Shown here one piece after another: positions 18,677-42,712 of a stretch of DNA of 64,000 nucleotides. The notes below the pieces were generated by a model. It searched no databases. It saw only the letters and a program-made list of their open reading frames with translations, and had not been told where the DNA came from. The stretch comes from a virus (Duplodnaviria > Caudoviricetes), in IMG/VR virus record IMGVR_UViG_3300032132_000748; one strand, 5' to 3'. A program made the position numbers and the translations under genes. Each line of letters begins with the position of its first letter. Within the stretch, counting starts at the first letter, position 1.

Positions 18677-18688
18677 CCACCAGATCCC

Positions 18689-18726
18689 GTGAAAGGGGCT
18701 GCATCGCCTAGATGCAGCCCCTTCAC
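18689..18726 (+). terminator. stem-loop after the 17834 ORF
   Basis: GTGAAAGGGGCTGCATC...GATGCAGCCCCTTCAC. Confidence 0.6.
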
Positions 18727-18741
18727 GCAATGAGGACCGCT

Positions 18742-19404: not shown

Positions 19405-19979
19405 CAATCTGGTTCTATAGCGATCCTCATTTTGGGCACGCAGGGATCATTGATCGCTGCGGACGCCCCTATGACTCTGTACAAGAGATGGATGAGAAGC
19501 TAATCCAGAACTACCAAAAGTGCGTAAAGCCAAGAGATGATGTCTACATTCTAGGAGATGTAGCCATGAAGGGCAGCCACGAGAAGATCCTTCGTCGGCT
19601 GCCAGGTAACAAACATCTCATCGTAGGCAACCACGATTGGAACAAGAATACTCGTATTACGGACTCCCACAAAGAGGCTTTGCGCTCCTGGGGCTACGCT
19701 TGGGTCAAAGACACCCACTTGCTGTGTGTAAAGAATTACCACGGCCCCAAAGATCATCTCTACATCTGGCTTGCACATTACGCGCATCTGACCTGGCCCA
19801 AAAAACACAGCAAAGGTGCCTGGCACCTATTCGGTCACTCTCACGGAAACCTAGAAGGCACTGGACTCTCGACGGATGTTGGGGTAGACTGTTGGGACTA
19901 CGCTCCCGTCAGCCTTTCCCAAATCAAAGAACATCTCAGTAAGAAGGAAAAGCATGGACCGCAACCTTCGGCGTCTTGA
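19401..19979 (+). CDS. calcineurin-like metallophosphoesterase
   Basis: SDPHFGH, LGDV, GNHD and GHSH motifs. Confidence 0.9.
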   Translation: MTIWFYSDPHFGHAGIIDRCGRPYDSVQEMDEKLIQNYQKCVKPRDDVYILGDVAMKGSHEKILRRLPGNKHLIVGNHDWNKNTRITDSHKEALRSWGYAWVKDTHLLCVKNYHGPKDHLYIWLAHYAHLTWPKKHSKGAWHLFGHSHGNLEGTGLSTDVGVDCWDYAPVSLSQIKEHLSKKEKHGPQPSAS

Positions 19980-20229
19980 GCGACGTGCGGCGGCTGAATA
20001 CCTCGATCCCGCAGAACAAGCACATCTTGTCCGACTACAATGTATGGCGTACGGTCACGATTGGGTTGAGGGCTGGGATGACCGGCAAAAGAACATTAAT
20101 AGTCGTGTCGAATACAAAGGGTTCTACTTTCACTGTGGTCGTTGTGACCCTAAAGCGGAACGGCGTATTACCGATATGGATGATCTAGGTGAAATAGACA
20201 TCTCAAAGGGACACGAAGAGGCGGCCTAG
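19954..20229 (+). CDS. hypothetical protein (MDRxLRxLER N-terminus)
   Basis: AAGGA RBS; C..GHDW...CxxC. Confidence 0.6.
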   Translation: MDRNLRRLERRAAAEYLDPAEQAHLVRLQCMAYGHDWVEGWDDRQKNINSRVEYKGFYFHCGRCDPKAERRITDMDDLGEIDISKGHEEAA

Positions 20230-31904: not shown

Positions 31905-32098
31905 CTCTATATGATACCAATTAAGTGTTTGGGTGCTGAGAGCATATTTTTTGATTATTATTTCTACGAAATCTGAGGCTGGAGTCCTAAGTCCTTGGAG
32001 AAGCTCGACTTAAGAAAATTTGGAGTTTGATGACACCGGGAGGCCCCCCGCTAGTCATTGGTAGTGAACAGGGAGTAAAACCTCTGCTCAACAATTAT

Positions 32099-32171
32099 CC
32101 GCTCGTAGCTCAATTAGAAGAGCACCCGGCTGTCTACTGGAAGGTTGCGAGTGCAAGTCTCGTCGAGCGGG
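32099..32171 (+). tRNA. tRNA-Asp(GUC)
   Basis: cloverleaf, CCGCTCG/CGAGCGG acceptor, loop CT-GTC-TA. Confidence 0.85.
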
Positions 32172-32262
32172 TCGTGTTAAAGGTCAGGTGATACTGCATC
32201 TTTATCACAAATGATTGTTCATTTACAATTCGGAAGAGTGTGCGCTGAAAGGCGTACATCAT

Positions 32263-32334
32263 GCACGTCGAGCCATAGTAGTGAGGCGACAGTCTGCAAA
32301 ACTGTATAACCCGGTGCAAGTCCGGGGGCGTGCT
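32263..32334 (+). tRNA. tRNA-Cys(GCA)
   Basis: cloverleaf, loop CT-GCA-AA, U73. Confidence 0.85.
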
Positions 32335-32340
32335 TAATTT

Positions 32341-32412
32341 TGCCTGGTGGTGTAATAGTAGTCACGTTTGGTTTTGAACCAAAAAGCGAAGGAGCGTAAC
32401 CTTCTCGGGCAG
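32341..32412 (+). tRNA. tRNA-Gln(UUG)
   Basis: cloverleaf, U1-A72, loop TT-TTG-AA. Confidence 0.8.
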
Positions 32413-32484
32413 TACCTGGTCGTCTAATTAGTAGGACGCAAGGCTTTGGACTTTGTAATGCTCGTGCGAATCGAGCCCAGGTAG
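32413..32484 (+). tRNA. tRNA-Gln(UUG)
   Basis: cloverleaf, loop CT-TTG-GA. Confidence 0.85.
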
Positions 32485-32488
32485 TTTT

Positions 32489-32559
32489 AGCCCGGTGGTG
32501 TAATAGTATCACTTCTGACTCTGACTTAGACAATGCGCGTGCGAATCGCGCCTGGGCTG
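32489..32559 (+). tRNA. tRNA-Gln(CUG)
   Basis: cloverleaf, loop CT-CTG-AC. Confidence 0.85.
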
Positions 32560-32594
32560 TTGCATATATTTGTATGCTTGTTACTATGCTTCTT

Positions 32595-33002
32595 ATGACT
32601 GACAAAACACAAACTGTAGCTCGATTGTTACGAAAAGGCGTTTGCCATGATTGTGAAGCTAAGCCTGGCGAATACCATGATATGGGTTGCGACGTAGAAC
32701 GTTGTCCTGATTGTGGTGGGCAATTAATAGCTTGTCAGTGTGACGAACCCCGTGAAACCTTCGATGAAGGTGAACGTTTGATTTGGACGGGGGTATGGCC
32801 AGGAACGGAAGAATGTATTGAATATGGATTCTTTAATAAATGGGTCGTAACAGGGACAAGGGAATTTAGGGGTCACACCCTAGAAACAGGAGACTGGATA
32901 CCTTGTGATATTGACGATCCTGACGCCTCGGCTGACCTATGTGAGCTTTCAGAAAAAGCTACATGGGATAGTAACAAGCGCAAATATGTGCTTAACAAAT
33001 AA
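32595..33002 (+). CDS. Cys-rich hypothetical protein
   Basis: CHDC...H..GCDVERCPDCGGQLIACQC. Confidence 0.7.
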   Translation: MTDKTQTVARLLRKGVCHDCEAKPGEYHDMGCDVERCPDCGGQLIACQCDEPRETFDEGERLIWTGVWPGTEECIEYGFFNKWVVTGTREFRGHTLETGDWIPCDIDDPDASADLCELSEKATWDSNKRKYVLNK

Positions 33003-33006
33003 TCCT

Positions 33007-33079
33007 GGGGGATTAGTTTAAACAGGTAAAACACAGCTTTTGCAAGGCTGAGAAAACGGAGCATTACCGTTATCCTCCA
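33007..33079 (+). tRNA. tRNA-Ala(UGC)
   Basis: G3:U70 pair, loop TT-TGC-AA. Confidence 0.85.
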
Positions 33080-33080
33080 T

Positions 33081-33209
33081 ACGGGCCGATTGTTTTCGGT
33101 TATCATTTCCTGAATAGAAAAAGGGGTGGGTTCGACTCCCACGCTCCCCATACGAGGGGAGTTGGTGTACGGTGCATGTAAAAACTACTCGAAGACGCTT
33201 ATTGCTCGT
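33081..33209 (+). ncRNA. Y RNA-like RNA 1 (GAA loop, permuted tRNA module)
   Basis: GGGCCGA/TTGCTC bulged helix, TGTTTTCGG/TCGAAGACG stem, GTTATC, then T-arm, capped acceptor, D-arm. Confidence 0.8.
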
Positions 33210-33214
33210 TATTT

Positions 33215-33287
33215 TCTCCTTTAGCTCAATAGTTAGAGTACCGGTTTGTTAAACCGAGGGATCTGGGTGCAATTCCCAGGGGGAGAG
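33215..33287 (+). tRNA. tRNA-Asn(GUU)
   Basis: cloverleaf, loop TT-GTT-AA. Confidence 0.85.
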
Positions 33288-33345
33288 TTAATATTTTTAA
33301 CAGTAATATTTATCACAAACGTCTTAAATATGTGCAATAAATTTT

Positions 33346-33419
33346 GCCTCCATAGCTCAATTAAGCAGAGCAGCAGGTTTTTACCCTGAAGGTTGAAAGT
33401 GCAATTCTTTCTGGAGGTA
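33346..33419 (+). tRNA. tRNA-Lys(UUU)
   Basis: cloverleaf, loop TT-TTT-AC. Confidence 0.85.
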
Positions 33420-33460
33420 TTGTGTTTAACAAATTGTTTGTTAGACTAATGAAATAACAA

Positions 33461-33528
33461 ATGGGCCGAATGTCTTAGGTTATCTTGACTTGTAATCAAA
33501 CCTCCACCTAAAACAACTTTTTGCTCAT
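33461..33528 (+). ncRNA. Y RNA-like RNA 2 (minimal; UGU anticodon hairpin)
   Basis: ATGGGCCGAA...TTGCTCAT, TGTCTTAGG/CCTAAAACA stem, TTGA-CTTGTAA-TCAA hairpin. Confidence 0.75.
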
Positions 33529-33538
33529 TACTACACTA

Positions 33539-33619
33539 GCCGGTGTGGTGGAACGGCAGACACGCGACATTTAGGATGTCGTGCCTTAGGGCGTGGGGGT
33601 TCAAATCCCTTCACCGGCA
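33539..33619 (+). tRNA. tRNA-Leu(UAG)
   Basis: long variable arm, loop TT-TAG-GA, canonical TTC T-loop. Confidence 0.92.
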
Positions 33620-33621
33620 TA

Positions 33622-34140
33622 ATGCGAGAATCTAAATATACAAAGAAATTACTTGCTCCGATGGTTAAAAGAGCGACATCTATTGCAGAAGTTTTAGACG
33701 AGCTTTGTCTCAAACCCTCAGGAGGAAATTATAGAAATATTAAAGGGCACATTGTAAGACATAACATAGATATATCTCATTTTACAGGTCAAGCCTGGAG
33801 TAGAGGTAAAACTGTTGAAACTTCACCAGCAGTTAAGCGAATAACTAGACTTATATCCTATAAAGATTCTGAAATTTTCAAAAAAAATACCAATTGGAAC
33901 AACAGAGAGCTAATAAAACGTCTCTTTAAAGATGGAAAGAAATATGCATGTGAAATTAAAAAATGTCCTTTGTATGGCCAAGAAACCCCTGAATGGGCTG
34001 AAAAGAAACTAACTTTACATCTTGATCATATCGATGGTAATAAAACAAATAATGAAAAAGAAAACTTAAGATTTATTTGTCCAAATTGTCATCAACAAAC
34101 CCCTACTTGGGGTAACAGTAAGGCTTCGTGGCAGACTTAG
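33622..34140 (+). CDS. HNH homing endonuclease
   Basis: LHLDHIDGNKTNNEKENLRFICPNCHQQTPTW. Confidence 0.9.
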   Translation: MRESKYTKKLLAPMVKRATSIAEVLDELCLKPSGGNYRNIKGHIVRHNIDISHFTGQAWSRGKTVETSPAVKRITRLISYKDSEIFKKNTNWNNRELIKRLFKDGKKYACEIKKCPLYGQETPEWAEKKLTLHLDHIDGNKTNNEKENLRFICPNCHQQTPTWGNSKASWQT

Positions 34141-34204
34141 TAATGCACCAGACTCTTAATCTGGGATCGAAAGATCAATGTGGGTGCGAACCCCACCGAA
34201 GTTA
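34122..34204 (+). tRNA. tRNA with Lys(CUU) anticodon and long variable arm
   Basis: loop CT-CTT-AA, GATC-GAAA-GATC extra arm, 3-bp D stem. Confidence 0.8.
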
Positions 34205-34210
34205 TAAAAA

Positions 34211-34272
34211 GCGGGCCGCTAATATTCGGTTATCTATTTTGAAGAAACCCCCGAATATATTCTTTTGCTCGT
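34211..34272 (+). ncRNA. Y RNA-like RNA 3 (minimal; UUG loop)
   Basis: GCGGGCCG...TTGCTCGT, ATATTCGG/CCGAATAT stem, GTTATC. Confidence 0.7.
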
Positions 34273-34283
34273 AATAAAATAAA

Positions 34284-34357
34284 CGGAGAGTAGCGTAGTC
34301 TGGTATCGCGCTGCGTTTGGGACGCAGAGATCGCAGGTTCAAATCCTGTCTCTCCGA
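34284..34357 (+). tRNA. tRNA-Pro(UGG)
   Basis: canonical cloverleaf, loop TT-TGG-GA. Confidence 0.92.
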
Positions 34358-34360
34358 ATT

Positions 34361-34444
34361 GGATCATAAACTTGACAAGGGTCAGGCGCGGTTTTGAAAA
34401 CCGATGGTGCTGAAAGGTATGGGGTGCAAGTCCTCTGTGATCCG
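34361..34444 (+). tRNA. tRNA-Ser(UGA)
   Basis: GGA start, long variable arm, G73, loop TT-TGA-AA. Confidence 0.8.
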
Positions 34445-34446
34445 TA

Positions 34447-34546
34447 ATGGGCCGAATGTTTTTGGTTATCTAATTGGCAAAGAACCCTGGTTTAACAGGG
34501 AAAGAAGGTTCAAATCCTTCATACTTCAAAAACACCATTTGCTCAT
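34447..34546 (+). ncRNA. Y RNA-like RNA 4 (GGC/D-like loop, extra hairpin, T-arm)
   Basis: ATGGGCCGAA...TTGCTCAT, TGTTTTTGG/TCAAAAACA stem, GAAGG-TTCAAAT-CCTTC T-arm. Confidence 0.75.
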
Positions 34547-34549
34547 ATT

Positions 34550-34639
34550 GGAAACGATCCGGTTAGATGAGGAGCATGTTTGCTAAACATGTAATGCTTA
34601 CGTGAGTAGGTATTGGGGGTGCGAATCCCTCCGTTTCCG
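34550..34639 (+). tRNA. tRNA-Ser(GCU)
   Basis: long variable arm, loop TT-GCT-AA. Confidence 0.85.
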
Positions 34640-34701
34640 TTAAGTTTGTTGTCTTTATACATTATTTTGTATAATTAAACCTCTTTAAGAGGTTAATTAT
34701 C

Positions 34702-34968
34702 ATGGCAAGCCCGACAGCAATAGCAGCAGCAAAAAAAGAACTAGCAGAAGCAACATTGGCAATGAATGTGCCGTCTTGCACTCAGGGACCCGCACAAGGA
34801 TTACCAGCGGTTGTTTGTAATCCAGCTCTAGCTGCGAAAACAGAACAAGCAGGAAAGAAACTTGCAGCCCTTATGGGTGGCGGCGGTCATATGAAAATGA
34901 TTCTTCTTACTGTGGCTGTAGCAGCGGGTATCGGCGGCTTCCTTTGGTGGAAGAAAAAGAAATCGTAG
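34702..34968 (+). CDS. small tail-anchored membrane protein
   Basis: LMGGGG, then TM and WWKKKKS; TATAAT and AGAGG RBS. Confidence 0.65.
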   Translation: MASPTAIAAAKKELAEATLAMNVPSCTQGPAQGLPAVVCNPALAAKTEQAGKKLAALMGGGGHMKMILLTVAVAAGIGGFLWWKKKKS

Positions 34969-35004
34969 TATTGACTCCTCGATTATCCCTGTTAATTTAG
35001 GTGT

Positions 35005-35361
35005 ATGAAATCACCGAAAATCGACTCCATCGAGTGGGGTCAAATCAAAGTAAACGAACAAACTTTTAAAGATGTCAGACTATTCCCCGGAGGAGTAGAA
35101 GGCTGGGATTGGCGAAAAACAGACACGCATCACAGGCCCGGCATTCAGATTGCTGATCTTGAAGGGTTAATGGATGCAGATATTGTTGTTCTAAGTAAAG
35201 GTTTCAAAGGTTGTCTGTGTTGCATGGATGAGACAATTAAGCATCTAGAAGATGCCGGAAAGATTGTTTATCACGAAGAAACAAAAGAAGCGGTAGAGAC
35301 ATATAACTCATTTGTTGAAAATGAAAGTAAAGTGTCAGCTTTAATTCACTCTACTTGCTAA
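35005..35361 (+). CDS. Mth938-like (DUF498/AAMDC) protein
   Basis: SPKIDSIEWG..FKD..LFPGG..WDWRKTDTHHRPGIQ...EAVETYN...ALIHSTC. Confidence 0.85.
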   Translation: MKSPKIDSIEWGQIKVNEQTFKDVRLFPGGVEGWDWRKTDTHHRPGIQIADLEGLMDADIVVLSKGFKGCLCCMDETIKHLEDAGKIVYHEETKEAVETYNSFVENESKVSALIHSTC

Positions 35362-35365
35362 AAAT

Positions 35366-35449
35366 GGACAGTAGACCAGATGGGATCTGGCCTCGCTTGG
35401 AAAGCGAGTGGTGCCCTAGCGGCATGAGGATCGAGACCTCTGTTGTCCG
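35366..35449 (+). tRNA. tRNA-Ser(GGA)
   Basis: long variable arm, loop TT-GGA-AA. Confidence 0.82.
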
Positions 35450-35500
35450 AAATTAGTTGACAGGACTCTTCGAGTTCTGAGTCATCTAAATAACAAGCTT

Positions 35501-35571
35501 GGGTCCATAGTGTAACAGCAGCATACCGGCTTCCAAACCCGTTGGTGAGGGTGCAAATCCTTCTGGACTCG
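35501..35571 (+). tRNA. tRNA-Trp(CCA)
   Basis: loop TT-CCA-AA, G73; weak anticodon stem. Confidence 0.75.
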
Positions 35572-35578
35572 TTATTTA

Positions 35579-35650
35579 GGGTGCGTGGTGTAACAGCTAG
35601 CACTAGAGCCTGAAAAACTCTCGGAGAAGGTGCAATTCCTTCCGTGCCCA
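35579..35650 (+). tRNA. tRNA-Phe(GAA)
   Basis: cloverleaf, loop CT-GAA-AA. Confidence 0.85.
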
Positions 35651-35696
35651 ATTAATCAAACCCATCCTTAAAGGAGGATACTATGAGGAGAATTGA

Positions 35697-35972
35697 AACA
35701 AGAAATTAAAAGAGATCCGCTTCCGACCACGGATAGCGGATCATGATCTGAAGATCAGGGTGAAACAAGCCAAGAACTTCCTAGATAAAGGTCACCGAGT
35801 AAAGGTAACCGTAATATTTTGGGGTAGAAAGTTTTCAGACCGTAAGCATTTTATGAAAGATGCTGAACAACGGTTGAAAGTGTTCGAAAGTCTTGGTAAA
35901 GTGGTGTCACCCGTGAAGATGAACGGATCAAATTACTCAATGATACTTGAGTCAGTCAAGAAGAAAGAGTAA
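35697..35972 (+). CDS. infC: translation initiation factor IF3, C-terminal domain only; homology begins upstream of the first in-frame start
   Basis: frame reads KEIRFRPRIADHDLKIRVKQAKNFLDKGHRVKVTVIFWGR; in-frame TGA at 35694. Confidence 0.8.
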   Translation, partial: NKKLKEIRFRPRIADHDLKIRVKQAKNFLDKGHRVKVTVIFWGRKFSDRKHFMKDAEQRLKVFESLGKVVSPVKMNGSNYSMILESVKKKE

Positions 35973-35980
35973 TACATGTT

Positions 35981-36052
35981 GGCCCTATCGTCTAGCAGTT
36001 AGGATACTAGTTTCTCGAACTAGTGACGCCGGTGCAAATCCGGCTGGGGTTA
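35981..36052 (+). tRNA. tRNA-Glu(CUC)
   Basis: cloverleaf, loop TT-CTC-GA. Confidence 0.85.
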
Positions 36053-36060
36053 TTAAAATT

Positions 36061-36136
36061 GGGTGCGTGGCCAAACTGGATAAGGCATCTCGCTACGAAC
36101 GAGAAGATTTTGCAGGTTCGAATCCTGCCGTGCTCA
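36061..36136 (+). tRNA. tRNA-Arg(ACG)
   Basis: canonical cloverleaf, loop CT-ACG-AA. Confidence 0.9.
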
Positions 36137-36147
36137 TATAAAAACAC

Positions 36148-36220
36148 GCTCCTAAAGCATAAGTAGTGATGTGCCTGTCTTGTAAGCAGGAAAACGTGGG
36201 TGCAAATCCCCGTGGGAGCT
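36148..36220 (+). tRNA. tRNA-Thr(UGU)
   Basis: cloverleaf, loop CT-TGT-AA. Confidence 0.82.
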
Positions 36221-36223
36221 TTT

Positions 36224-36294
36224 GGGTCCTTAGTGAAGTAGAATCACGCTAGGTTTCGAACCTTGTATCGAGGGTGCAAATCCTTCAGGACCTA
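36224..36294 (+). tRNA. tRNA-Arg(UCG)
   Basis: cloverleaf, loop TT-TCG-AA. Confidence 0.85.
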
Positions 36295-36303
36295 TTAATA
36301 CTC

Positions 36304-36375
36304 GCCTCCGTGGTGTAACAGAAGCACGCTTCTCTTCTAAAGAAGATGGTTCGGGTGCAAATCCTGACGGGGGTA
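36304..36375 (+). tRNA. tRNA-Arg(UCU)
   Basis: cloverleaf, loop CT-TCT-AA. Confidence 0.85.
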
Positions 36376-36381
36376 TTAAAT

Positions 36382-36452
36382 GCGGGATTGATGTAGCAGT
36401 AGCATGACATCCTTCCAAGTTGTTCGCACGGGTGCAAATCCCGTATCCCGCT
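36382..36452 (+). tRNA. tRNA-Gly(UCC)
   Basis: GCG start, U73, loop CT-TCC-AA. Confidence 0.85.
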
Positions 36453-36470
36453 TTTTGGTATAATGTTTTC

Positions 36471-36803
36471 ATGGGCTATGAAGCATTCGGTAACTTTGGA
36501 AGAACTCCTGAAGAAGTAATAGAAACCGCAAAGAAACAAAAGAAAATAGAGACTGCCGCAAGAGCGGTTTTACATCCTCTTTCTACTATTGTTTCAGGAA
36601 CAGCTAAAGTAGCTGGAGGAAACGGAAAACCTGTTGATGAGGAGCTTTATATTAAGGCCATTATTATCAAAATAATGAAAGACAAAGGTCTTCATCCTCA
36701 TGCTTCACTAGAAGATTTAATTCGCAAAACAGTTAAACAAGTAATGCGAGAAGAATCAGCAGGGCATCCTCATTGGAAACATCCAACGCTAAAAAGAAAA
36801 TAA
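36471..36803 (+). CDS. hypothetical protein
   Basis: ATG 6 nt after TGG-TATAAT; MGYEAFGNFG start. Confidence 0.6.
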   Translation: MGYEAFGNFGRTPEEVIETAKKQKKIETAARAVLHPLSTIVSGTAKVAGGNGKPVDEELYIKAIIIKIMKDKGLHPHASLEDLIRKTVKQVMREESAGHPHWKHPTLKRK

Positions 36804-36806
36804 TTT

Positions 36807-36878
36807 GGGTCTATAGTGTAATAGATAACATGTTTCTCTCCTAAAGAAACGATCTGGGTGCGACTCCCGGTAGACCTA
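36807..36878 (+). tRNA. tRNA-Arg(CCU)
   Basis: cloverleaf, loop CT-CCT-AA. Confidence 0.85.
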
Positions 36879-36879
36879 T

Positions 36880-37013
36880 TGATGGGCCGATAATTGTCAG
36901 TTATCGTTATCATAAAACCAAGGCGACGGTTCGATTCCGTCCCCCGCGATTCGTAGCGGGGTGGAGTAATGGCAGCTCGTGAAAAACACTTGACAGTGAC
37001 CCTTTGCTCATCA
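36880..37013 (+). ncRNA. Y RNA-like RNA 5 (CAU loop, permuted initiator-tRNA-like module)
   Basis: TGATGGGCCGA...TTGCTCATCA, ATTGTCAG/TTGACAGT stem; TCATAA, T-arm, CCCCGC/GCGGGG, D-arm. Confidence 0.82.
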
Positions 37014-37028
37014 GTCATATACATACAA

Positions 37029-37114
37029 GCTAGCGTGGCGTAATTAGCAGGCGCGGAAGGCTTAAACCCTTCTGGGAGTTAAATCCCGTGCAGGTGCAAA
37101 TCCTGTCGCTAGCA
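37029..37114 (+). tRNA. tRNA-Leu(UAA)
   Basis: long variable arm, loop CT-TAA-AC. Confidence 0.87.
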
Positions 37115-37240
37115 TTTGATGGGCCGAATTGTTTTCGGTTATCGCATTCCAAGCCGGAAGTCAGGGCGCGAATCCCTGCTTTGTAGTGTAATAGTAGCAC
37201 GCCGTAAAAAACGTCGAAGACGCATTTATTGCTCATCAAA
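37115..37240 (+). ncRNA. Y RNA-like RNA 6 (UCC loop, permuted module lacking acceptor stem)
   Basis: TTTGATGGGCCGAA...TTGCTCATCAAA; T-arm CAGGG/CCCTG then D-arm GTGT/GCAC. Confidence 0.8.
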
Positions 37241-37244
37241 ACCA

Positions 37245-37317
37245 CCTGGGTAGGTGTAATTAGAAGTCACGCGTATCTGTGGAATACGAGGATTGGGTGC
37301 AAACCCCAGACCCAGGA
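37245..37317 (+). tRNA. tRNA-His(GUG)
   Basis: loop CT-GTG-GA; A at -1 and at 73. Confidence 0.8.
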
Positions 37318-37320
37318 TAA

Positions 37321-37391
37321 GCCCGATTAGTTCAATAGTAGAATGTATGTGTGACTTACATAAGACAAAGGTGCGATTCCTTTATCGGGCA
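37321..37391 (+). tRNA. tRNA-Val(GAC)
   Basis: cloverleaf, loop GT-GAC-TT. Confidence 0.8.
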
Positions 37392-37411
37392 TGATATGTT
37401 ATTCTTTAGAT

Positions 37412-38068
37412 ATGCTTTGCGAGAATTGTAAAAAATATTCCTATAAAGGACCGCTTCCTAACTGTGGGGTGTGCCCTAAATCAGAATTTACTCCAAATCT
37501 ATTTATTAGAATTCCAAAAACGGCTAGTGTTTCTATTCATGTGGTGCCAGGCATTGATGCCTACCACAAAGTTGTGTCAGGAATAGGGCATAATACTGCC
37601 GAACAACTTAAGGAGTTTCTTGGAGAGGATCTATACAACTCGCGGTTCACCTTTGCTATAGCCAGAAATCCTTATGACCGACTGGTAAGTGCTTACCACT
37701 ATTTTGTTCAAAAAGCCGCCCGTAAATGGTCCAAAGCCCTTGCTAAAGAATTCCCAACATTCAAAAGTTTTTGCTATCAATTTAATAGGGAAAAATACGA
37801 AGGTGAGAGGCAACAGTTTAGATTACAAAAAGAATTTGTTGTTGATAAGAATGATGAAGTAATTGTTGATTACATTGGGAGGTTTGAGTCCTTACACCAA
37901 TCCTGGGAAGTAATTAAAAAAAGGCTCAATTTGAGTGACAGTTTAGACCACCTAAACAAGTCTAAACATAAGGCATGGCAGTCATATTATGACGAAAAAT
38001 GTCAGGATATAGTTTATAGAAGCTACAAAGAAGATTTTGAGTTTTTTGGCTATCCGGAAAAAATATAG
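37412..38068 (+). CDS. sulfotransferase (Sulfotransfer_2-like)
   Basis: FIRIPKTASVSI, RNPYDRLVSAY, DYIGRFESL, DFEFFGY. Confidence 0.85.
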   Translation: MLCENCKKYSYKGPLPNCGVCPKSEFTPNLFIRIPKTASVSIHVVPGIDAYHKVVSGIGHNTAEQLKEFLGEDLYNSRFTFAIARNPYDRLVSAYHYFVQKAARKWSKALAKEFPTFKSFCYQFNREKYEGERQQFRLQKEFVVDKNDEVIVDYIGRFESLHQSWEVIKKRLNLSDSLDHLNKSKHKAWQSYYDEKCQDIVYRSYKEDFEFFGYPEKI

Positions 38069-38139
38069 CGGCCTATAGTAGAGAAGCAGCACGCTTGTTT
38101 TACACGCAAGAAAAGATGGAGCGTTACCATCTAGGCCGA
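38069..38139 (+). tRNA. tRNA-Val(UAC)
   Basis: cloverleaf, loop TT-TAC-AC. Confidence 0.8.
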
Positions 38140-38142
38140 TAT

Positions 38143-38216
38143 TGGTGTTTCGTCTAATTGGTAAAGATCCTGTGCTCATAACACAGATAATCTCGGTTCG
38201 AGTCCGAGGGCACCAA
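38143..38216 (+). tRNA. tRNA-Met/Ile2(CAU)
   Basis: canonical cloverleaf, loop CT-CAT-AA. Confidence 0.85.
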
Positions 38217-38221
38217 ACTAC

Positions 38222-38294
38222 GCCCCTGTAGTATAATAGATAATTACAAGTCTTTGGTAAGGACTAGACCCGCGTGCAATTCGCGGCAGGGGCT
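38222..38294 (+). tRNA. tRNA-Thr(GGU)
   Basis: cloverleaf, loop TT-GGT-AA. Confidence 0.82.
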
Positions 38295-38327
38295 TGATGA
38301 TATTATCATAAAAGCTATAAAGCTATT

Positions 38328-38978
38328 ATGGCCGCTCCTCATCCAAAAAATACTAATTTTTACCAAGACACCTTAAATTTGAGACAAAGATATCGGTTGA
38401 GTAATCAACAAATAAACGATATTATCAATAATAAGGAAAAAAGAGTAAGTCAATCAGCGATAAACGGCTGGCTTAAAAAATTTCCTCTTTCCGGGGAGGA
38501 GCGACTAGAGAGTTTTGTCAAAAATATGAAACTCACCCGCTACAATCCCGGAGAACCTTCTAAATTTTGGACCCCTGAAATCAAAAATTTTAGTCGAAAT
38601 CAAGTTGGTAAAATAGCAGAAGCAGCGATTCTTTATCGACTGCTCCTTAACAACCACACAGTTTACTGCTCTCCTTTTGATGGAGACGTTGCTGACTGGT
38701 TGGTAGTTACACCTACTAAAAGCTACAAAATTCAAGTGCGAAAAGCTAAAACTCCAAAAACAGGTAAACCTATCATTTCTCTGTGTTGTAAGGACAACTC
38801 TAAAACAGATGAAATAATGAGGAGATTAACAGCCAATGACTACGATTTTATCGTGGGATATGATATCTATAAAGATAATGCTTACGTTTTTTCTTATGAG
38901 GAAACAAAAAATAATAAGACTTCTATAACAATAAGAGATGATGCACTTGAGGCGTGGCATAAAATAAGTTGTTTATAG
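38328..38978 (+). CDS. PD-(D/E)XK homing-type endonuclease with N-terminal HTH
   Basis: GKIAE...DWLV...KIQVR...DYDFIVGY, as in group I intron-associated PD-(D/E)XK nucleases. Confidence 0.75.
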   Translation: MAAPHPKNTNFYQDTLNLRQRYRLSNQQINDIINNKEKRVSQSAINGWLKKFPLSGEERLESFVKNMKLTRYNPGEPSKFWTPEIKNFSRNQVGKIAEAAILYRLLLNNHTVYCSPFDGDVADWLVVTPTKSYKIQVRKAKTPKTGKPIISLCCKDNSKTDEIMRRLTANDYDFIVGYDIYKDNAYVFSYEETKNNKTSITIRDDALEAWHKISCL

Positions 38979-39021
38979 TTACAAATATTGCGATGTCAGA
39001 GCCATCTGATATCATCCAAAT

Positions 39022-39429
39022 ATGGCCTATTCCGAAAAAGTTGTAGATCACTTCAATAATCCACGAAATGTTGGATCATTAAACAAGAATGATCTAGACG
39101 TAGGAACTGGTATTGTCGGTGCCCCCGAATGTGGGGACGTAATGCGTTTACAACTCAAAATAAAGAACAATATTATTCAAGAAGCGAAATTTAAGACCTT
39201 CGGTTGTGGTTCAGCCATAGCAAGTTCTTCATTAGCTACTGAATGGGTCTTAGGAAAGTCCCTTGATGAGGCTAATAAAATAAAGAATGTTCAATTCGTT
39301 GAAGAACTATCTTTACCTCCTGTAAAAATACACTGTAGTGTGCTCGCAGAAGATGCGATCAAGGCTGCAATTAAAGACTACAAAGCAAAACAAAACACCA
39401 AAGTCGAAGACTTTACAGTTAAAGTATGA
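39022..39429 (+). CDS. iscU: Fe-S cluster scaffold IscU
   Basis: MAYSEKVVDHF.NPRNVG, GAPECGDVM, KFKTFGCGSAIASSS, LPPVKIHCS. Confidence 0.97.
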   Translation: MAYSEKVVDHFNNPRNVGSLNKNDLDVGTGIVGAPECGDVMRLQLKIKNNIIQEAKFKTFGCGSAIASSSLATEWVLGKSLDEANKIKNVQFVEELSLPPVKIHCSVLAEDAIKAAIKDYKAKQNTKVEDFTVKV

Positions 39430-39653
39430 CTGATCTAGCTGATCTTCAGCGGATTCTCAAAGAGATGAGAAAAGAAAATAAAAGACTTCGATCAGAACGA
39501 AAACATTTCATAGCTAGAGATGGTCTACGACACTTAAATAATTACACCATTAGAACAATAGAATCATCTTACTACCAAGATAAAAAAGGTAGATACAGAT
39601 GCCAAGATTGTAAACGTTTTGTAATTGAACCTCGACATACAACGCTCTTATAG
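39426..39653 (+). CDS. hypothetical protein
   Basis: ATGA-coupled to iscU; CxxC. Confidence 0.45.
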   Translation: MTDLADLQRILKEMRKENKRLRSERKHFIARDGLRHLNNYTIRTIESSYYQDKKGRYRCQDCKRFVIEPRHTTLL

Positions 39654-39715
39654 TTTAATTAGTAGAATCTCTGTTTCGTAATCAGAGGGAGTCAGTGCAA
39701 TTCTGACTAAGAGCT
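39644..39715 (+). tRNA. tRNA-Thr(CGU)
   Basis: cloverleaf, loop TT-CGT-AA. Confidence 0.82.
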
Positions 39716-39733
39716 TTTGGTATAATTCGTATC

Positions 39734-40015
39734 ATGCAATTATCCTACTACACAACACCAGGAACCGGACCCTTAAGCTGGCAAAAAACAAACGAAAATG
39801 TTCGTAAAGTCAGTGATAATGAATTTCGTAAGCATACGTCTTCATTTTATGACCTAGATGGCAAAAAAGAAGGCTTTCTTTCAAAGTTAGCCAAAGCTTT
39901 CAAAGGCAAGAAGAAACGTCCAAAAGGTTCTTGGGGGTTACGTGTTGGTCATAGAGGAGATACCTCTCAGCGACCAGGATTTTTGCAGGGCATTGACGAT
40001 CACTGGTGGGGTTAA
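39734..40015 (+). CDS. hypothetical protein
   Basis: ATG 7 nt after TGG-TATAAT. Confidence 0.55.
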   Translation: MQLSYYTTPGTGPLSWQKTNENVRKVSDNEFRKHTSSFYDLDGKKEGFLSKLAKAFKGKKKRPKGSWGLRVGHRGDTSQRPGFLQGIDDHWWG

Positions 40016-40096
40016 GTCCTTCAACTTCAAGCATTTAAGAAAATATCAATCAAGTGACAGCTAACTTCGGTTAGTTAGTCATTAATATACAACCGC

Positions 40097-40168
40097 AGCG
40101 GTATGGTGTAAGTAGTAACTCACTAATTTCATACGTTAGAGTTATGGGTGCAAGTCCCGTTACCGCTA
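40097..40168 (+). tRNA. tRNA-Met/Ile2(CAU)
   Basis: AGCGGTA/TACCGCT acceptor, loop TT-CAT-AC. Confidence 0.78.
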
Positions 40169-40172
40169 TTAC

Positions 40173-40243
40173 GGGGATATGGTGAAACAGGATCATATTT
40201 GCCTGGCAGGCAAAAGTTTTGGGCGCGATTCCCAATATCTCCA
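40173..40243 (+). tRNA. tRNA-Ala(GGC)
   Basis: G3:U70, loop CT-GGC-AG. Confidence 0.83.
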
Positions 40244-40246
40244 TAT

Positions 40247-40384
40247 ATGATGGGCCGACTTTGTTTTCGGTTATCGATCTACGGAATCCGTGGAGGAGGT
40301 TCGAATCCTTCACTCTCGATACGTCGAGAGTTAGTGTAATGGTAGCACACGCAAACCCCGAGGACGCCCTTTATTGCTCGTCAT
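40247..40384 (+). ncRNA. Y RNA-like RNA 7 (ACG loop, permuted tRNA module)
   Basis: ATGATGGGCCGA...TTGCTCGTCAT; GAT-CTACGGA-ATC hairpin, T-arm, ACTCTCGA-TACG-TCGAGAGT capped acceptor, D-arm. Confidence 0.82.
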
Positions 40385-40388
40385 GTTT

Positions 40389-40462
40389 CAGGCTGTAGCT
40401 CAGCTTAGTAGAGCGCTAGTTCGGGGAACTAGAAGTCGCAGGTGCGAATCCTGTCAGCCTGA
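40389..40462 (+). tRNA. tRNA-Pro(GGG)
   Basis: C1-G72, A73, loop TC-GGG-GA (C33). Confidence 0.8.
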
Positions 40463-40514
40463 TTTTTTAAAAGTGTCAATCATATTGACTGGAGCAGAAG
40501 GAAAAGGTGAACCG

Positions 40515-41399
40515 ATGGGTTACCAAAAAATCAAAAATCTGTACCAGGATCCAACAATCCTAACACTCTTCCGAGAAGTATACTGTCTAGAAAAAATTCA
40601 CGGCACATCAGCTCATATTACATGGAAAGATGGAAAAGTGAGCTATTTCTCTGGCGGTGAAAAGCATGCTAATTTCGTAAAGCTATTTGATGAGGAAACT
40701 CTTGTTAAAAAGCTCACCGAAGAATTCGGTAACTACACTACTGTTACTATTTACGGTGAGGCTTACGGAGGTAGCTGCCAGAGAATGTCTACCACTTATG
40801 GTAAGCAGCTAAGATTCGTTGCTTTTGAAGTCAATATTGACGATCACTGGCTCGACGTTCTAAACGCTGAAGATGTTACTAAGAAAATGGGTCTTGAATT
40901 CGTTGATTACATTAAGGGTCCTGCTACTCTTGAATTTGTTAACGAACAACGGGATCGTCCCAGCACTCAGGCTATTCGTAATGGTATTACTGATGAGCCT
41001 AAGCTTCGAGAAGGTGTCGTTATTCGACCCTTAATTGAGCTTGCTAAGAATGACGGTAATCGTCTTATGGTGAAGCACAAGGGAGAAGCATTCTCAGAGC
41101 ACAAAACTCCTCGTGAGGTTAACCCTGAGAAAGTGAAAGTCATGTCTGACGCTAGAGAAATAGCCGAAGACTGGGTCACTGCAATGCGTCTTGAACACGT
41201 AATGGACAAACTCAGCCCTGACGGTATTGAATTAACTGTTAAAAGCACTAGAGAAGTGATTTCTGCAATGGTTCAGGACGTTAAGGACGAGAGTGAGGGA
41301 GAAATCGTATGGACTCCTGCTGTCTCCAAGGCAATCGGTAAAGCGGCTGCGAACTTGTTTCATAGGCATCTTAAATCGAAGCTTGCCAGCCTAGAATAG
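40515..41399 (+). CDS. Rnl2-family RNA ligase
   Basis: Y.KI, EKIHGT (motif I), IYGE.YGG, AFEV, REGVVIRP, VKHK..F.E; start MGYQK after AAGGTGA. Confidence 0.85.
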   Translation: MGYQKIKNLYQDPTILTLFREVYCLEKIHGTSAHITWKDGKVSYFSGGEKHANFVKLFDEETLVKKLTEEFGNYTTVTIYGEAYGGSCQRMSTTYGKQLRFVAFEVNIDDHWLDVLNAEDVTKKMGLEFVDYIKGPATLEFVNEQRDRPSTQAIRNGITDEPKLREGVVIRPLIELAKNDGNRLMVKHKGEAFSEHKTPREVNPEKVKVMSDAREIAEDWVTAMRLEHVMDKLSPDGIELTVKSTREVISAMVQDVKDESEGEIVWTPAVSKAIGKAAANLFHRHLKSKLASLE

Positions 41400-41804: not shown

Positions 41805-42712
41805 ATGACACCGCTAAACGCATTTTAACTCGATTTGAGGAATTCGGATTTCCTCTCCATATCGACAAAAACATTCTTCCGAATGACAATTCAACTGTCT
41901 TTGTTTGCTCAGGGATGCAACAGGTTAAAGAGAGATTCTCAAATCCTGACGGATCCAAATACGGCTCACTTCAGAGCTGCATTAGAACAAACGATATAGA
42001 CTTAATCGGTGATGGCTCACATCTCACATATTTTGAGATGATGGGCAATTTTTCTTTTGGGGGCGATGATTACTTTGCTTCAATTGATCTTTGGGATTGC
42101 TTACTCAAAGATCTAAAAATCCCCGTTACCCACATTACCGTTCACCCAACTCAGGATCACCACAAACAATATTGGCTCAATAAGGGCTACCAAGTCAAAC
42201 CGGACGAAGAATGTGTCTGGAGCGACGGAAATATTGGTGGATATTGTTGTGAGGTATTTGTAGGAGACCTAGAGATAGGTAACCTAGTTAATACTTTGGG
42301 ACACTCGACAGACGTTGGGTTTGGTTTCGAGAGAATTATTCAAATAATCGAGCAAAAGTCTAGAGTAGACGAAACTTCGATATTTGACCAGACTCTCCAC
42401 CCAATTGTTCGGGACCACTACCGAACATTACTATCCCTCAAAGAAAATGGGGTAGATCCTGGCTATAAAAGTAGAAACTGTATTACTCGAAGGCTACTTC
42501 ATCGTGCCCTCGACCTAGAAGATCAATCTAAACTATCTGAATTTTCAGAATGGATTGAATCTGAAAAGCAGCTCTACGAAAAAAAGCTTAGAACTGCTAA
42601 GAGAGTTTGGAAGAAGCATAAAAAGAAGCCCTACTCCTGGTGGAAAGAAAGCTTCGGTTTAACAGAGGACGAGTATGATCTTCTTGTTAAGATGAAAGCT
42701 AAGCCAGGTTAA
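41795..42712 (+). CDS. truncated alanyl-tRNA synthetase-like protein (aminoacylation domain only)
   Basis: ILPNDNSTVFVCSGMQQ, QSCIRTNDIDLIGDGSHLTYFEMMGNFSFG, LEIGNLV, DVGFGFERI, DHYRT; frame open from 41795, first in-frame ATG 41915. Confidence 0.82.
   Translation, partial: EVDYDTAKRILTRFEEFGFPLHIDKNILPNDNSTVFVCSGMQQVKERFSNPDGSKYGSLQSCIRTNDIDLIGDGSHLTYFEMMGNFSFGGDDYFASIDLWDCLLKDLKIPVTHITVHPTQDHHKQYWLNKGYQVKPDEECVWSDGNIGGYCCEVFVGDLEIGNLVNTLGHSTDVGFGFERIIQIIEQKSRVDETSIFDQTLHPIVRDHYRTLLSLKENGVDPGYKSRNCITRRLLHRALDLEDQSKLSEFSEWIESEKQLYEKKLRTAKRVWKKHKKKPYSWWKESFGLTEDEYDLLVKMKAKPG

What the first reader, a model, noticed from the sequence alone, without database searches (positions are those of the whole stretch)
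36880..37013. Circularly permuted tRNA bodies, including an initiator-Met mimic
Seen: copies 1, 5, 6 and 7 read anticodon loop, variable region, T-arm, acceptor 3' strand, short loop, acceptor 5' strand, D-arm. This is a tRNA opened 5' of the anticodon with its native ends joined. Copy 5 (TCATAA..GACGG-TTCGATT-CCGTC-CCCCGCG-A..A-GCGGGG-TG-GAGT-AATGGCA-GCTC) follows bacterial tRNA-fMet, including a 1:72 mismatch and a CAU loop, so body and anticodon agree; the array has no ordinary initiator tRNA. Copy 7 caps its acceptor with a UACG tetraloop, copy 6 has lost the acceptor stem, and copy 4 keeps only a T-arm plus a hairpin. Established: YrlA RNAs have a tRNA-like domain with a closed acceptor stem. 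Inference: repeated capture of different tRNAs into one scaffold. These could be uncharged mimics or, less likely, precursors of permuted tRNAs.
Basis: partly seen in the sequence, partly recalled or inferred. Interest (0 to 1): 0.82.

Follow-up and report, generated by a model that had tools for sequence, protein, structure and literature searches.

The report
Initiator-tRNA-shaped phage Y RNA
This 132-base stretch is a small RNA gene of the already known YrlA (bacterial/phage Y RNA) class, a Ro60-binding handle carrying a tRNA with its strands in rearranged order; this copy is unusual because its tRNA part is clearly modelled on the initiator tRNA.

Summary
Window 36881-37012 (+) is one of seven Y-RNA-like genes wedged between tRNA genes. 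Each has a Ro60-type handle (GGGC-C-GA...GUUAUC / UUGCUC). Copies 1, 5 and 7 also carry anticodon-like arm, variable loop, T arm, 7-bp acceptor capped by A-UNCG-N, then D arm.

This is the published YrlA layout, already described as a "circularly permuted tRNA with a closed acceptor stem". A covariance model built from 35 such modules scores 82.6 bits on the published YrlA site of Mycobacterium phage ET08. It finds 143 members in 782 kb of phage DNA, with 27 of 28 pairs covarying.

The permutation point is 26|27, not the anticodon loop: the whole anticodon-type arm is kept.

Copy 5 is 76% identical to E. coli tRNA-fMet, the best of 535 tRNAs. It has G2:C71, C3:G70, A11:U24, A73 and CAU, but lacks the three G:C anticodon-stem pairs and free ends. 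Two other phage modules with an initiator-type D stem also carry CAU.

Body and loop do not agree in general (4 of 35), nor for copies 1 and 7.

Ro60 is absent from the window and could not be verified in this genome.

This scan has noted similar phage Y-RNA/tRNA mimics on many other genomes.

Verdict: known kind, new initiator-type variant.

The parts
36881..37012 (+). Copy 5: complete YrlA-type Y RNA gene (handle plus permuted initiator-like tRNA body)
   Evidence: R1 covariance model 99.9 bits, full length, though this copy was in the training set. Sequence read.
36881..36905 (+). Copy 5 handle, 5' strand: GAUGGGC, bulged C36888, G36889-A36890, inner stem UGUCA 36895-36899, invariant GUUAUC 36900-36905
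   Evidence: GGGCCG and GTTATC are invariant in all 7 copies. The outer helix covaries in the family.
36904..36920 (+). Anticodon-type arm (YrlA 'V' element): 27-31 UCGUU, loop AUCAUAA with CAU at 36911-36913, 39-43 AACCA
   Evidence: Collinear with E. coli tRNA-fMet UCGGG-CUCAUAA-CCCGA. 52 of 89 family modules have a stem of at least 3 bp closing a 7-nt loop at tRNA spacing, against 19.6 in shuffles; U33 in 42 of 52 and A38 in 43 of 52.
36921..36941 (+). Variable loop AGGC and T arm GACGG-UUCGAUU-CCGUC
   Evidence: The T stem covaries in the family.
36942..36961 (+). Capped acceptor stem: 66-72 CCCCGCG, A73, UUCG, U(-1), 1-7 AGCGGGG
   Evidence: All seven acceptor pairs covary in the family. 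Positions 2-7 and 66-71 are identical to E. coli tRNA-fMet.
36962..36979 (+). U8, G9, D arm GAGU-AAUGGCA-GCUC (A11:U24), G26
   Evidence: An initiator-type D stem occurs in only 3 family members.
36980..37012 (+). A-rich linker, inner handle 3' strand UGACA 36991-36995, UU 37004-37005, outer strand GCUCAUC 37006-37012
   Evidence: TTGCTC is invariant in all 7 copies.
33080..33210 (+). Copy 1: full YrlA-type module, V loop CUGAAUA, cap A-UACG-A
   Evidence: R1 75.0 bits. ARAGORN calls the re-linearised form tRNA-Phe(GAA). The body has no Phe-like nearest neighbour.
33460..33529 (+). Copy 2: minimal Y RNA (handle plus one hairpin)
   Evidence: R1 36 bits, not in the training set. Weak Rfam Y_RNA match of 19.1 bits.
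34210..34273 (+). Copy 3: minimal Y RNA
   Evidence: R1 29.6 bits, not in the training set.
34446..34547 (+). Copy 4: handle plus 5-bp hairpin plus T arm; no acceptor stem or D arm
   Evidence: R1 29.4 bits. Fold.
37118..37237 (+). Copy 6: handle, V hairpin (AUUCCAA), T arm with CGCGAAU loop, no acceptor stem, D arm with AG loop
   Evidence: R1 72.1 bits. Fold. The elbow type matches the array's own tRNAs.
40249..40382 (+). Copy 7: full module with an 8-bp acceptor-type stem closed by UACG
   Evidence: R1 85.3 bits. Folds.
36806..36879 (+). tRNA-Arg(CCU) ending 1 nt before copy 5
37029..37114 (+). tRNA-Leu(UAA) starting 16 nt after copy 5 and ending 3 nt before copy 6

Best explanation
Window 36881-37012 encodes a YrlA-class Y RNA. 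It is one of seven paralogues embedded between tRNA genes in the tRNA array of a very large marine phage-like genome.

Shown: its two ends pair into the Ro60-type bulged helix. The middle is a complete tRNA body in permuted order (27-73, a 6-nt cap, then 1-26). It obeys tRNA covariation and is recognised as a tRNA once re-linearised. The body of this copy descends from, or was converted by, an initiator tRNA; a tandem pair of such genes gives exactly this strand order.

Inferred mechanism:
1. The RNA is co-transcribed with the tRNAs.
2. Its ends are set by 3' processing of the upstream tRNA-Arg and RNase P cleavage of the downstream tRNA-Leu.
3. The handle binds a phage Ro60 (TROVE) ring.
4. 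The L-shaped, initiator-shaped domain acts as an effector module that engages tRNA-binding proteins, within an RNA surveillance, decay or repair particle of the kind described for Ro60-Y RNA-PNPase.

With its closed acceptor end and without the three G:C anticodon-stem pairs, it is a mimic, not a working initiator tRNA. Its 7-bp acceptor stem with U at -1 makes opening by RNase P possible, as seen for Mycobacterium smegmatis YrlA.
For: Family identity:
- The order V-T-AS-D, the GNCGA motif and YUAY are as defined for YrlA (PMC4201824).
- Model R1, built from the four window copies with tRNA-like bodies (1, 5, 6 and 7) and 31 IMG/VR modules, hits the published YrlA site 162 nt upstream of the Ro gene of Mycobacterium phage ET08 at 82.6 bits.
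- R1 also hits a minimal Y RNA about 300 nt upstream of Ro60 in jumbo record G004.

Structure:
- RNAalifold finds 20 of 28 pairs compensatory.
- On 143 members, 94.9% of cells pair, 27 of 28 pairs covary, and the covariation score is 0.63 against 0.07-0.11 in slid controls.

tRNA-likeness: ARAGORN calls the re-linearised copies 1, 5 and 7, and 36 of 52 family constructs, with the anticodon at the V-loop triplet.

Initiator identity of copy 5:
- 76% identity to E. coli tRNA-fMet, the best of 535 tRNAs (z 5.1); 7 of the top 8 hits are CAU tRNAs.
- z is still 4.7 with the anticodon masked. At z>=4.5 the same classifier is right for 41 of 43 real tRNAs.
- A11:U24 within a GAG/CUC D stem occurs in only 3 family members, and all three carry CAU.

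Ro60 link: 4 of 4 near-complete jumbo phage records that carry these handles encode TROVE, mostly more than 100 kb away from the handles.

Position: all seven copies lie 0-16 nt from flanking tRNAs. In the family, 38 of 89 hits with a tRNA in the locus lie within 20 nt of one.

Origin model: tandem initiator genes with an 8-nt spacer exist in Novosphingobium.
Against: - No Ro60 gene lies in the 64-kb window (tblastn). Its presence elsewhere on the contig rests only on an untested first-reader note, which I could not verify.
- Rfam's YrlA model RF02553 does not match any window copy even at E<=10.
- T and D stem sequences, reported as nearly invariant in YrlA, vary freely in this phage family. 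The effector may therefore differ from that of bacterial YrlA.
- No expression or processing data exist.
- For copy 5 the MFE fold prefers a local hairpin in the 5' handle strand (CGAUAA/UUAUCG) over the inner handle stem.
Confidence: 0.8

Rival explanations
1. Chargeable two-piece initiator mimic. RNase P opens the cap, the 3' strand is trimmed and receives CCA, and MetRS and formyltransferase charge the domain. It would stay tethered to Ro60 through the handle, and act as a decoy or sensor for initiator-specific factors or toxins.
For: - 7-bp acceptor stem, U(-1), A73, G2:C71, C3:G70, an unpaired 1:72, A11:U24 and CAU in a 7-nt loop on a 4-of-5-bp stem are all present.
- M. smegmatis YrlA is cleaved by RNase P and gains CCA in vivo (PMC4201824).
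- An initiator-type body recurs together with CAU in three unrelated phage contigs.
Against: - Nothing was tested biochemically.
- L123 and L064 have a paired 1:72 or a 6-bp stem, so the formylation determinants are not conserved.
- Most YrlA RNAs are not cleaved (PMC4201824).
- Position 32 is A, and the stem has a C x C mismatch at 28:42.
Confidence: 0.1
2. Precursor of a true permuted initiator tRNA. The handle is excised, positions 26 and 27 are ligated (for example by the nearby RNA ligase at 40374-41399) into a circle, and RNase P and RNase Z then open the cap to give a normal tRNA.
For: - Strand order and capped acceptor are as in Cyanidioschyzon permuted tRNA genes.
- An RNA ligase gene closes the array (Pfam RNA_ligase).
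- No ordinary initiator tRNA is in the array.
- Wang et al. raise this possibility for YrlA.
Against: - The termini form the conserved Ro60-type helix shared with copies 2-4, which have no complete tRNA body.
- Copy 5 has no bulge-helix-bulge motif: a 1-nt bulge and a 4x8 internal loop instead.
- No bacterial or phage splicing endonuclease is known.
- The anticodon stem lacks the three G:C pairs that an initiator needs.
Confidence: 0.03
3. Non-functional debris of recombination between tandem tRNA genes in a fast-evolving array.
For: - Copies 4 and 6 are visibly decayed.
- R1 gives weak hits at ordinary tRNA-tRNA junctions (35524-35619).
- Tandem fMet genes mimic the pattern.
Against: - The handle motifs are invariant in 7 of 7 copies.
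- 143 family members show compensatory changes in every helix.
- The same handle sits next to Ro60 genes in ET08 and G004.
Confidence: 0.05

Closest known systems
YrlA, the tRNA-like bacterial and phage Y RNA bound by Ro60/Rsr (Chen et al. 2014, PMC4201824; structure in Wang et al. 2018, bioRxiv 10.1101/312249; Rfam RF02553)
   Same: - Paired ends carrying a GNCGA Ro60 motif, and YUAY.
- Then V, T, closed acceptor stem and D.
- tRNA tertiary nucleotides are present.
- Already described as a circularly permuted tRNA, possibly born from a tRNA dimer.
   Different: - Seven copies inside a tRNA array, not beside Ro60.
- T and D stems are not conserved.
- 7-bp acceptor stems with UNCG-type caps.
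- The V element is a full anticodon-type arm.
- Copy 5 has a specific isotype (initiator).
- No Rfam RF02553 match.
YrlA of Mycobacterium phage ET08 (NC_013650.1, about 128160-128301)
   Same: Detected by the same covariance model at 82.6 bits. It has the same V hairpin with a 7-nt loop (AUUGAAA), an AGGUC variable loop, and T, capped acceptor and D.
   Different: ET08 has a single full copy directly upstream of its Ro gene. Its cap loop is longer and it has no initiator features.
Metazoan Y RNAs (Rfam RF00019)
   Same: The bulged Ro60-binding helix is formed by both ends: GG(G/U)C-C-GA pairing with UU-G(C/A)(U/C)(C/A). Copy 2 gives a weak RF00019 match.
   Different: Metazoan Y RNAs have no tRNA-like domain.
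Bacterial initiator tRNA (E. coli metZ, L087:3388-3464)
   Same: 76% identity overall. Positions 2-7:66-71 are identical. Also shared: U8, G9, the G10-A11-G12 / C23-U24-C25 stem, G26, U27:A43, G29:C41, UCAUAA, AGG-C and A73.
   Different: Permuted and capped. G30:C40 and G31:C39 are replaced by U:A pairs. There is a C x C at 28:42 and A at 32. There is no CCA or free 5' end, and a handle is inserted at 26|27.
Circularly permuted tRNA genes of Cyanidioschyzon merolae and some archaea (Soma et al. 2007, cited)
   Same: The 3' half lies upstream of the 5' half, and the acceptor ends are joined by a short intervening sequence.
   Different: Those rely on a bulge-helix-bulge motif and a splicing endonuclease, and mature into normal tRNAs. 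Here the termini are a conserved protein-binding helix.
Two-piece (circularly permuted) tmRNA genes of alphaproteobacteria and cyanobacteria (own knowledge)
   Same: A bacterial precedent for a permuted tRNA-like domain whose acceptor end is generated by processing.
   Different: tmRNA has an mRNA module and is alanylated. No such module is present here.

Membership tests
YrlA Y RNA | 5' GNCGAAN0-1G motif near the 5' end (putative Ro60 contact) | tested here: inconclusive
   GNCGA is kept in 6 of 7 copies. The full GNCGAA motif is present in copies 2, 4 and 6. Copy 5 reads GCCGAU.
YrlA Y RNA | Conserved YUAY at the start of the V region | tested here: met
   GUUAUC is invariant in all 7 copies and across alignment A2.
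YrlA Y RNA | Order V, T stem-loop, closed acceptor-like stem-loop, D stem-loop, between paired 5' and 3' ends | tested here: met
   Covariation.
YrlA Y RNA | tRNA tertiary-interaction nucleotides (U8, A14, G18 G19, U54 U55 C56, A58) | tested here: met
   Copy 5 has U8, A14, GG in the D loop and UUCGA in the T loop. Only the 15:48 pair (A and C) is non-canonical (read). Copy 6 follows the array's own AG/GC elbow variant.
YrlA Y RNA | Nearly invariant T-stem and D-stem sequences | tested here: not met
   T-stem and D-stem pairs show 3-6 pair types each among 143 members.
YrlA Y RNA | Encoded within about 4 kb of, and on the same strand as, a Ro60/TROVE gene | tested here: not met
   No TROVE match in the 64-kb window. 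In related jumbo phages the handles lie more than 100 kb from Ro60 in G001 and G002.
YrlA Y RNA | Rfam RF02553 gathering score (69 bits) | tested here: not met
   No hit at E<=10. The published ET08 YrlA itself reaches only 37.4 bits.
YrlA Y RNA | Homology to a published YrlA by sequence-plus-structure model | tested here: met
   R1 scores 82.6 bits at the ET08 YrlA site. ET08 was not in the training set.
YrlA Y RNA | Bound by Ro60/Rsr | not testable with these tools
   Needs co-immunoprecipitation or EMSA.
Bacterial initiator tRNA | CAU anticodon in a 7-nt loop | tested here: met
   AUCAUAA at 36909-36915. ARAGORN places the anticodon there.
Bacterial initiator tRNA | G2:C71, C3:G70, A11:U24 and no Watson-Crick 1:72 pair | tested here: met
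   alignment. The 1:72 mismatch lies under a cap, so its meaning is doubtful.
Bacterial initiator tRNA | Three consecutive G:C pairs at 29-31:39-41 | tested here: not met
   Only G29:C41 remains. 30:40 and 31:39 are U:A.
Bacterial initiator tRNA | Free 5' end and 3' CCA-accepting end in normal strand order | tested here: not met
   The acceptor stem is closed by A-UUCG-U and the strand order is permuted.
Permuted tRNA genes (Cyanidioschyzon type) | 3' half upstream of 5' half, with the acceptor ends joined | tested here: met
Permuted tRNA genes (Cyanidioschyzon type) | Bulge-helix-bulge motif formed by leader and trailer | tested here: not met
   The copy 5 termini give 7 bp, a 1-nt bulge, 2 bp, a 4x8 internal loop and 5 bp.
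Permuted tRNA genes (Cyanidioschyzon type) | Splicing endonuclease available | not testable with these tools
   The whole genome is not held.

The most novel reading that the evidence does not exclude
Copy 5 and its counterparts in L064 and L123 form a distinct class of Ro60-tethered initiator-tRNA mimics. The cap would be opened by RNase P, the RNA would gain CCA, and it would be methionylated and possibly formylated. It would then act during infection as a decoy or sensor for initiator-specific host factors or toxins, such as formyltransferase, IF2, or nucleases that cleave initiator tRNA. This would give the tRNA-like domain of a Y RNA a defined molecular target for the first time.
Probability: 0.1. 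Interest if true: 0.8.

Novelty: new variant of a known kind. Interest (0 to 1): 0.47.

Why it matters
The function of the tRNA-like domain of YrlA has been open since 2014. An isotype-specific version narrows the candidate partners to factors that read initiator tRNA. It keeps the acceptor and D-stem determinants and the CAU loop of initiator tRNA, and it recurs in three unrelated phage contigs. This can be tested with simple assays.

Copy 5 is also the clearest sequence evidence I know of for the proposed origin of YrlA from tandem tRNA genes. Both halves still match one identifiable tRNA species.

The survey shows that large phages commonly carry several such RNAs inside tRNA arrays, far from their Ro60 gene. 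ARAGORN mis-calls their 5' parts as tRNAs.

Tried and rejected
- Megablast and tblastn of window pieces against the 'phages' collection: no match.
- Whole genome: not held.
- Exact copy-5 patterns in viral and metagenome contigs: none.
- Sulfotransferase neighbour used to find syntenic relatives: none in metagenome contigs. The best protein relative is 37% identical. Orthologues of copy 5 in close relatives could therefore not be examined.
- Ligase relatives L001 and L002 are cut just upstream and hold no Y RNA.
- Looking for this genome's Ro60 among the top 120 relatives of a jumbo-phage Ro60: none sits on the 859,269-bp contig. Ro60 in this genome remains unverified.
- BLAST of copy 5 against E. 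coli genomes: nothing, because the database is too large for so short a query. I fetched metZ by coordinates instead.
- My first isotype tests were contaminated by ARAGORN pseudo-tRNA calls that overlap the modules themselves. I repeated them without those calls.
- Sequencing runs: no RNA holder listed. The only full holder is a marine metagenome that may be the source.
- Promoter and terminator scan: uninformative.
- Two review papers were not held.
- The genome-contig scan for permuted fMet-like modules returned only a tandem pair of normal initiator genes.

Full report
**What is there**

The window holds a tRNA array at 32.1-40.5 kb on the + strand. ARAGORN and Rfam find 23-28 tRNAs, and 32 at a relaxed threshold. 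Seven non-tRNA units lie between these genes, each 0-16 nt from its neighbours: 33080-33210, 33460-33529, 34210-34273, 34446-34547, 36881-37012, 37118-37237 and 40249-40382. All seven share invariant GGGCCG and GTTATC near the 5' end and TTGCTC near the 3' end.

The ends pair as GGGC-C-GA with UU-GCUC, a helix with a bulged C. This is the form of the Ro60-binding helix of Y RNAs. Copy 2 even gives a weak Rfam Y_RNA match.

**Anatomy of the finding (copy 5)**

Reading the sequence gives, in order:
- handle 5' strand;
- a hairpin UCGUU-AUCAUAA-AACCA;
- AGGC;
- T arm GACGG-UUCGAUU-CCGUC;
- CCCCGCG;
- A, UUCG, U;
- AGCGGGG;
- UG;
- D arm GAGU-AAUGGCA-GCUC;
- G, an A-rich linker, then the handle 3' strand.

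Copies 1 and 7 have the same plan, with caps A-UACG-A and A-UACG-U. Copy 6 lacks the acceptor hairpin. Copy 4 keeps a hairpin and a T arm. Copies 2 and 3 are handle plus one small hairpin.

Unconstrained folding gives this architecture for copies 1, 6 and 7. For copy 5 the constrained fold is within 0.5 kcal/mol of the optimum.

**What family it is**

The layout is that of YrlA: a GNCGA motif, YUAY, then V, T, a closed acceptor stem and D (PMC4201824). [quoted passage not shown] It also cites a model in which they arose from dimeric tRNA transcripts (bioRxiv 10.1101/312249).

I tested the relationship rather than assuming it.
- A degenerate pattern of handle plus T loop found 79 stretches in IMG/VR. 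Most are on contigs of 100-465 kb, often with several per contig.
- An alignment of 35 modules gave an RNAalifold consensus of outer and inner handle helices, T arm, 7-bp acceptor stem and D arm. 20 of 28 pairs had compensatory changes.
- The covariance model R1 built from this alignment scores the four full window copies at 72-100 bits; these were in the training set. It scores copies 2-4, which were not, at 29-36 bits.
- R1 scores 82.6 bits at a site 162 nt upstream of the Ro-like gene gp220 of Mycobacterium phage ET08, the published phage YrlA.
- Over 782 kb of phage loci it finds 143 members. On their alignment 94.9% of cells pair, against 38-47% when partners are slid, and 27 of 28 pairs show double changes. 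That alignment is fitted to the model, which favours the structure somewhat.

Rfam's own YrlA model (RF02553) is narrow. It gives ET08 only 37.4 bits, below its 69-bit threshold, and gives the window copies nothing.

**Link to Ro60**

No TROVE gene lies in the window, and the genome is not held. I could not verify it.

Indirect support comes from related phages.
- All four near-complete jumbo-phage records that carry these handles encode a TROVE protein.
- In two of them the handles lie more than 100 kb from that gene. In a third, one minimal Y RNA lies about 300 nt upstream of it.
- One record has nine R1 matches in one cluster.

Multi-copy Y RNAs in tRNA arrays, remote from Ro60, thus seem to be the rule in this group of phages. 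38 of the 89 family members that have a tRNA in the fetched locus lie within 20 nt of one.

**Where the tRNA is opened**

In 52 of 89 unique modules the V element is a stem of 3-5 bp closing a 7-nt loop. It lies exactly 3-6 nt (mostly 4-5) upstream of the T stem, as an anticodon arm does. Shuffles of that segment give 19.6 on average, at most 35.

The loop has U at position 33 in 42 of 52, a purine at 37 in 46 of 52, and A at 38 in 43 of 52. Pairs 29:41, 30:40 and 31:39 show four or five pair types each. The choice of register favoured U33 and R37 slightly. ET08's published YrlA has the same feature.

The permutation point is therefore between positions 26 and 27. The body is a whole tRNA with the handle attached at the D-stem/anticodon-stem junction through short linkers.

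With the handle removed at that point, ARAGORN at default settings calls copy 1 tRNA-Phe(GAA), copy 5 tRNA-Met(CAU) and copy 7 tRNA-Arg(ACG). It of 52 family constructs with the anticodon at the V-loop triplet. Controls with a shuffled arm are called in 36% of cases, and for copy 5 in 2 of 20.

**Is copy 5 an initiator mimic?**

Yes, as far as sequence can show. I fetched E. coli metZ by tool and built a reference set of 535 distinct tRNAs from E. coli and the phage loci.
- Re-linearised copy 5 is 76% identical to tRNA-fMet. This is the top hit (z 5.1), and 7 of the best 8 hits are CAU tRNAs.
- With the anticodon masked, and after removing spurious ARAGORN calls, it is still the top hit (z 4.7). 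It is the only one of 35 modules above z 4.5, a level at which the classifier is right for 41 of 43 real tRNAs.
- Shared features: positions 2-7:66-71, U8, G9, G10-A11-G12 with C23-U24-C25, G26, U27:A43, G29:C41, UCAUAA, AGG-C and A73.
- Missing: the G30:C40 and G31:C39 pairs (now U:A), C32, and free ends.
- The 1:72 mismatch is real but weak evidence.

The initiator-type D stem occurs in only three family members: copy 5, L064:1092-1225 and L123:1010-1114. These lie on unrelated contigs, and all three carry CAU at the anticodon position. Fisher P is 0.006 for the two that are full length.

The array's two ordinary CAU tRNAs (38142, 40097) are not initiator-like.

**Does body match loop in general?**

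No. Only 4 of 35 modules agree with their nearest tRNA isotype, against 1.9 expected by permutation (P=0.12). The same method is right for 65% of real tRNAs. 11 of 35 carry Ser or Leu triplets on bodies with short variable loops. The bodies of copies 1 and 7 are nearest to Gly/Ala and Gln/Pro tRNAs.

The claim of repeated capture of different tRNAs is therefore supported only for the initiator-type copy. The common A-UNCG-N cap of copies 1, 5 and 7 suggests shared descent, or convergence on a stable tetraloop.

A tandem pair of normal initiator genes with an 8-nt spacer (Novosphingobium) shows the arrangement from which such a body can arise by recombination with an existing Y RNA.

**How it probably works**

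Inferred, not shown:
1. Co-transcription with the tRNAs.
2. Ends set by processing of the flanking tRNA-Arg and tRNA-Leu.
3. Binding of the handle by a Ro60 ring.
4. The L-shaped domain serving as the effector end of a Ro60 particle. Examples are the bacterial Ro60-Y RNA-PNPase complex and a Thermus phage Ro60 (PMC12135203).

The 7-bp acceptor stem and U(-1) make RNase P opening possible, as in M. smegmatis. Maturation into a true tRNA is unlikely, because the termini are a conserved protein-binding helix shared with body-less copies and no bulge-helix-bulge motif is present.

**Novelty**

The kind is known, and this scan's notes list hundreds of similar phage elements. New here are the following:
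- the initiator-specific body with a matching loop, recurring in three contigs;
- the recognition that the V element is an anticodon-type arm;
- the non-conserved T and D stems;
- the multi-copy placement inside tRNA arrays.

Noticed in passing
window 32098-40463: Every array tRNA with a UGC or CGC T loop has AG instead of GG in its D loop. The few with UUC keep GG. The Y modules obey the same rule: copy 6 has AG with CGC, and copies 1, 5 and 7 have GG with UUC. This suggests the D/T elbow contact forms in them too.
   Followed up: partly
window 33105-40290: The V-loop triplets of copies 1, 2, 3, 5, 6 and 7 (GAA, UGU, UUG, CAU, UCC, ACG) are all anticodons of tRNAs present in the same array. 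Two loops are identical heptamers: CUUGUAA with tRNA-Thr at 36148, and UUUUGAA with tRNA-Gln at 32340.
   Followed up: partly
phage loci L003-L081, e.g. L025:4403-4476, L037:6059-6135, L038:8386-8453: ARAGORN 'tRNAs' that are really the handle 5' strand plus V hairpin plus T arm of Y RNAs. This is a likely source of mis-annotated tRNAs in phage genomes.
   Followed up: yes
window 35524-35619: The Y-RNA model gives a weak hit (24 bits) across the junction of two ordinary adjacent tRNAs: T arm of one, D arm of the next. This is the false-positive type that Chen et al. warned of.
   Followed up: no
L123:1010-1240 (-): A GC-rich 115-kb viral contig has two tandem YrlA-like modules without the GUUAUC motif. 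One has an initiator-like body (E. coli tRNA-fMet is its best hit, z about 4) and CAU at the anticodon position.
   Followed up: partly
L064 (47-kb viral contig): R1 finds seven matches within about 3 kb. One of them (1092-1225, minus strand) has an initiator-type D stem, a UUCAUAA loop and a degenerate T arm.
   Followed up: partly
window 37391-38068: The sulfotransferase-family protein encoded here is recorded on a single contig of 859,269 bp and has no relative above 37% identity. The source genome is unusually large for a phage and has no close relatives in the collections.
   Followed up: no
window 14000-20000: A stretch of 53-59% GC in a roughly 40% GC window, with a periodic TGCTGGGCCT repeat at 17413-17625.
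   Followed up: no
window 34122-34204: An 83-nt tRNA with a Lys (CUU) anticodon and a long variable arm.
   Followed up: no
window 41915-42712: A 265-aa ORF matching only the N-terminal part of class II alanyl-tRNA synthetase (Pfam tRNA-synt_2c, profile positions 55-140). It lies just downstream of the RNA ligase that closes the array.
   Followed up: no
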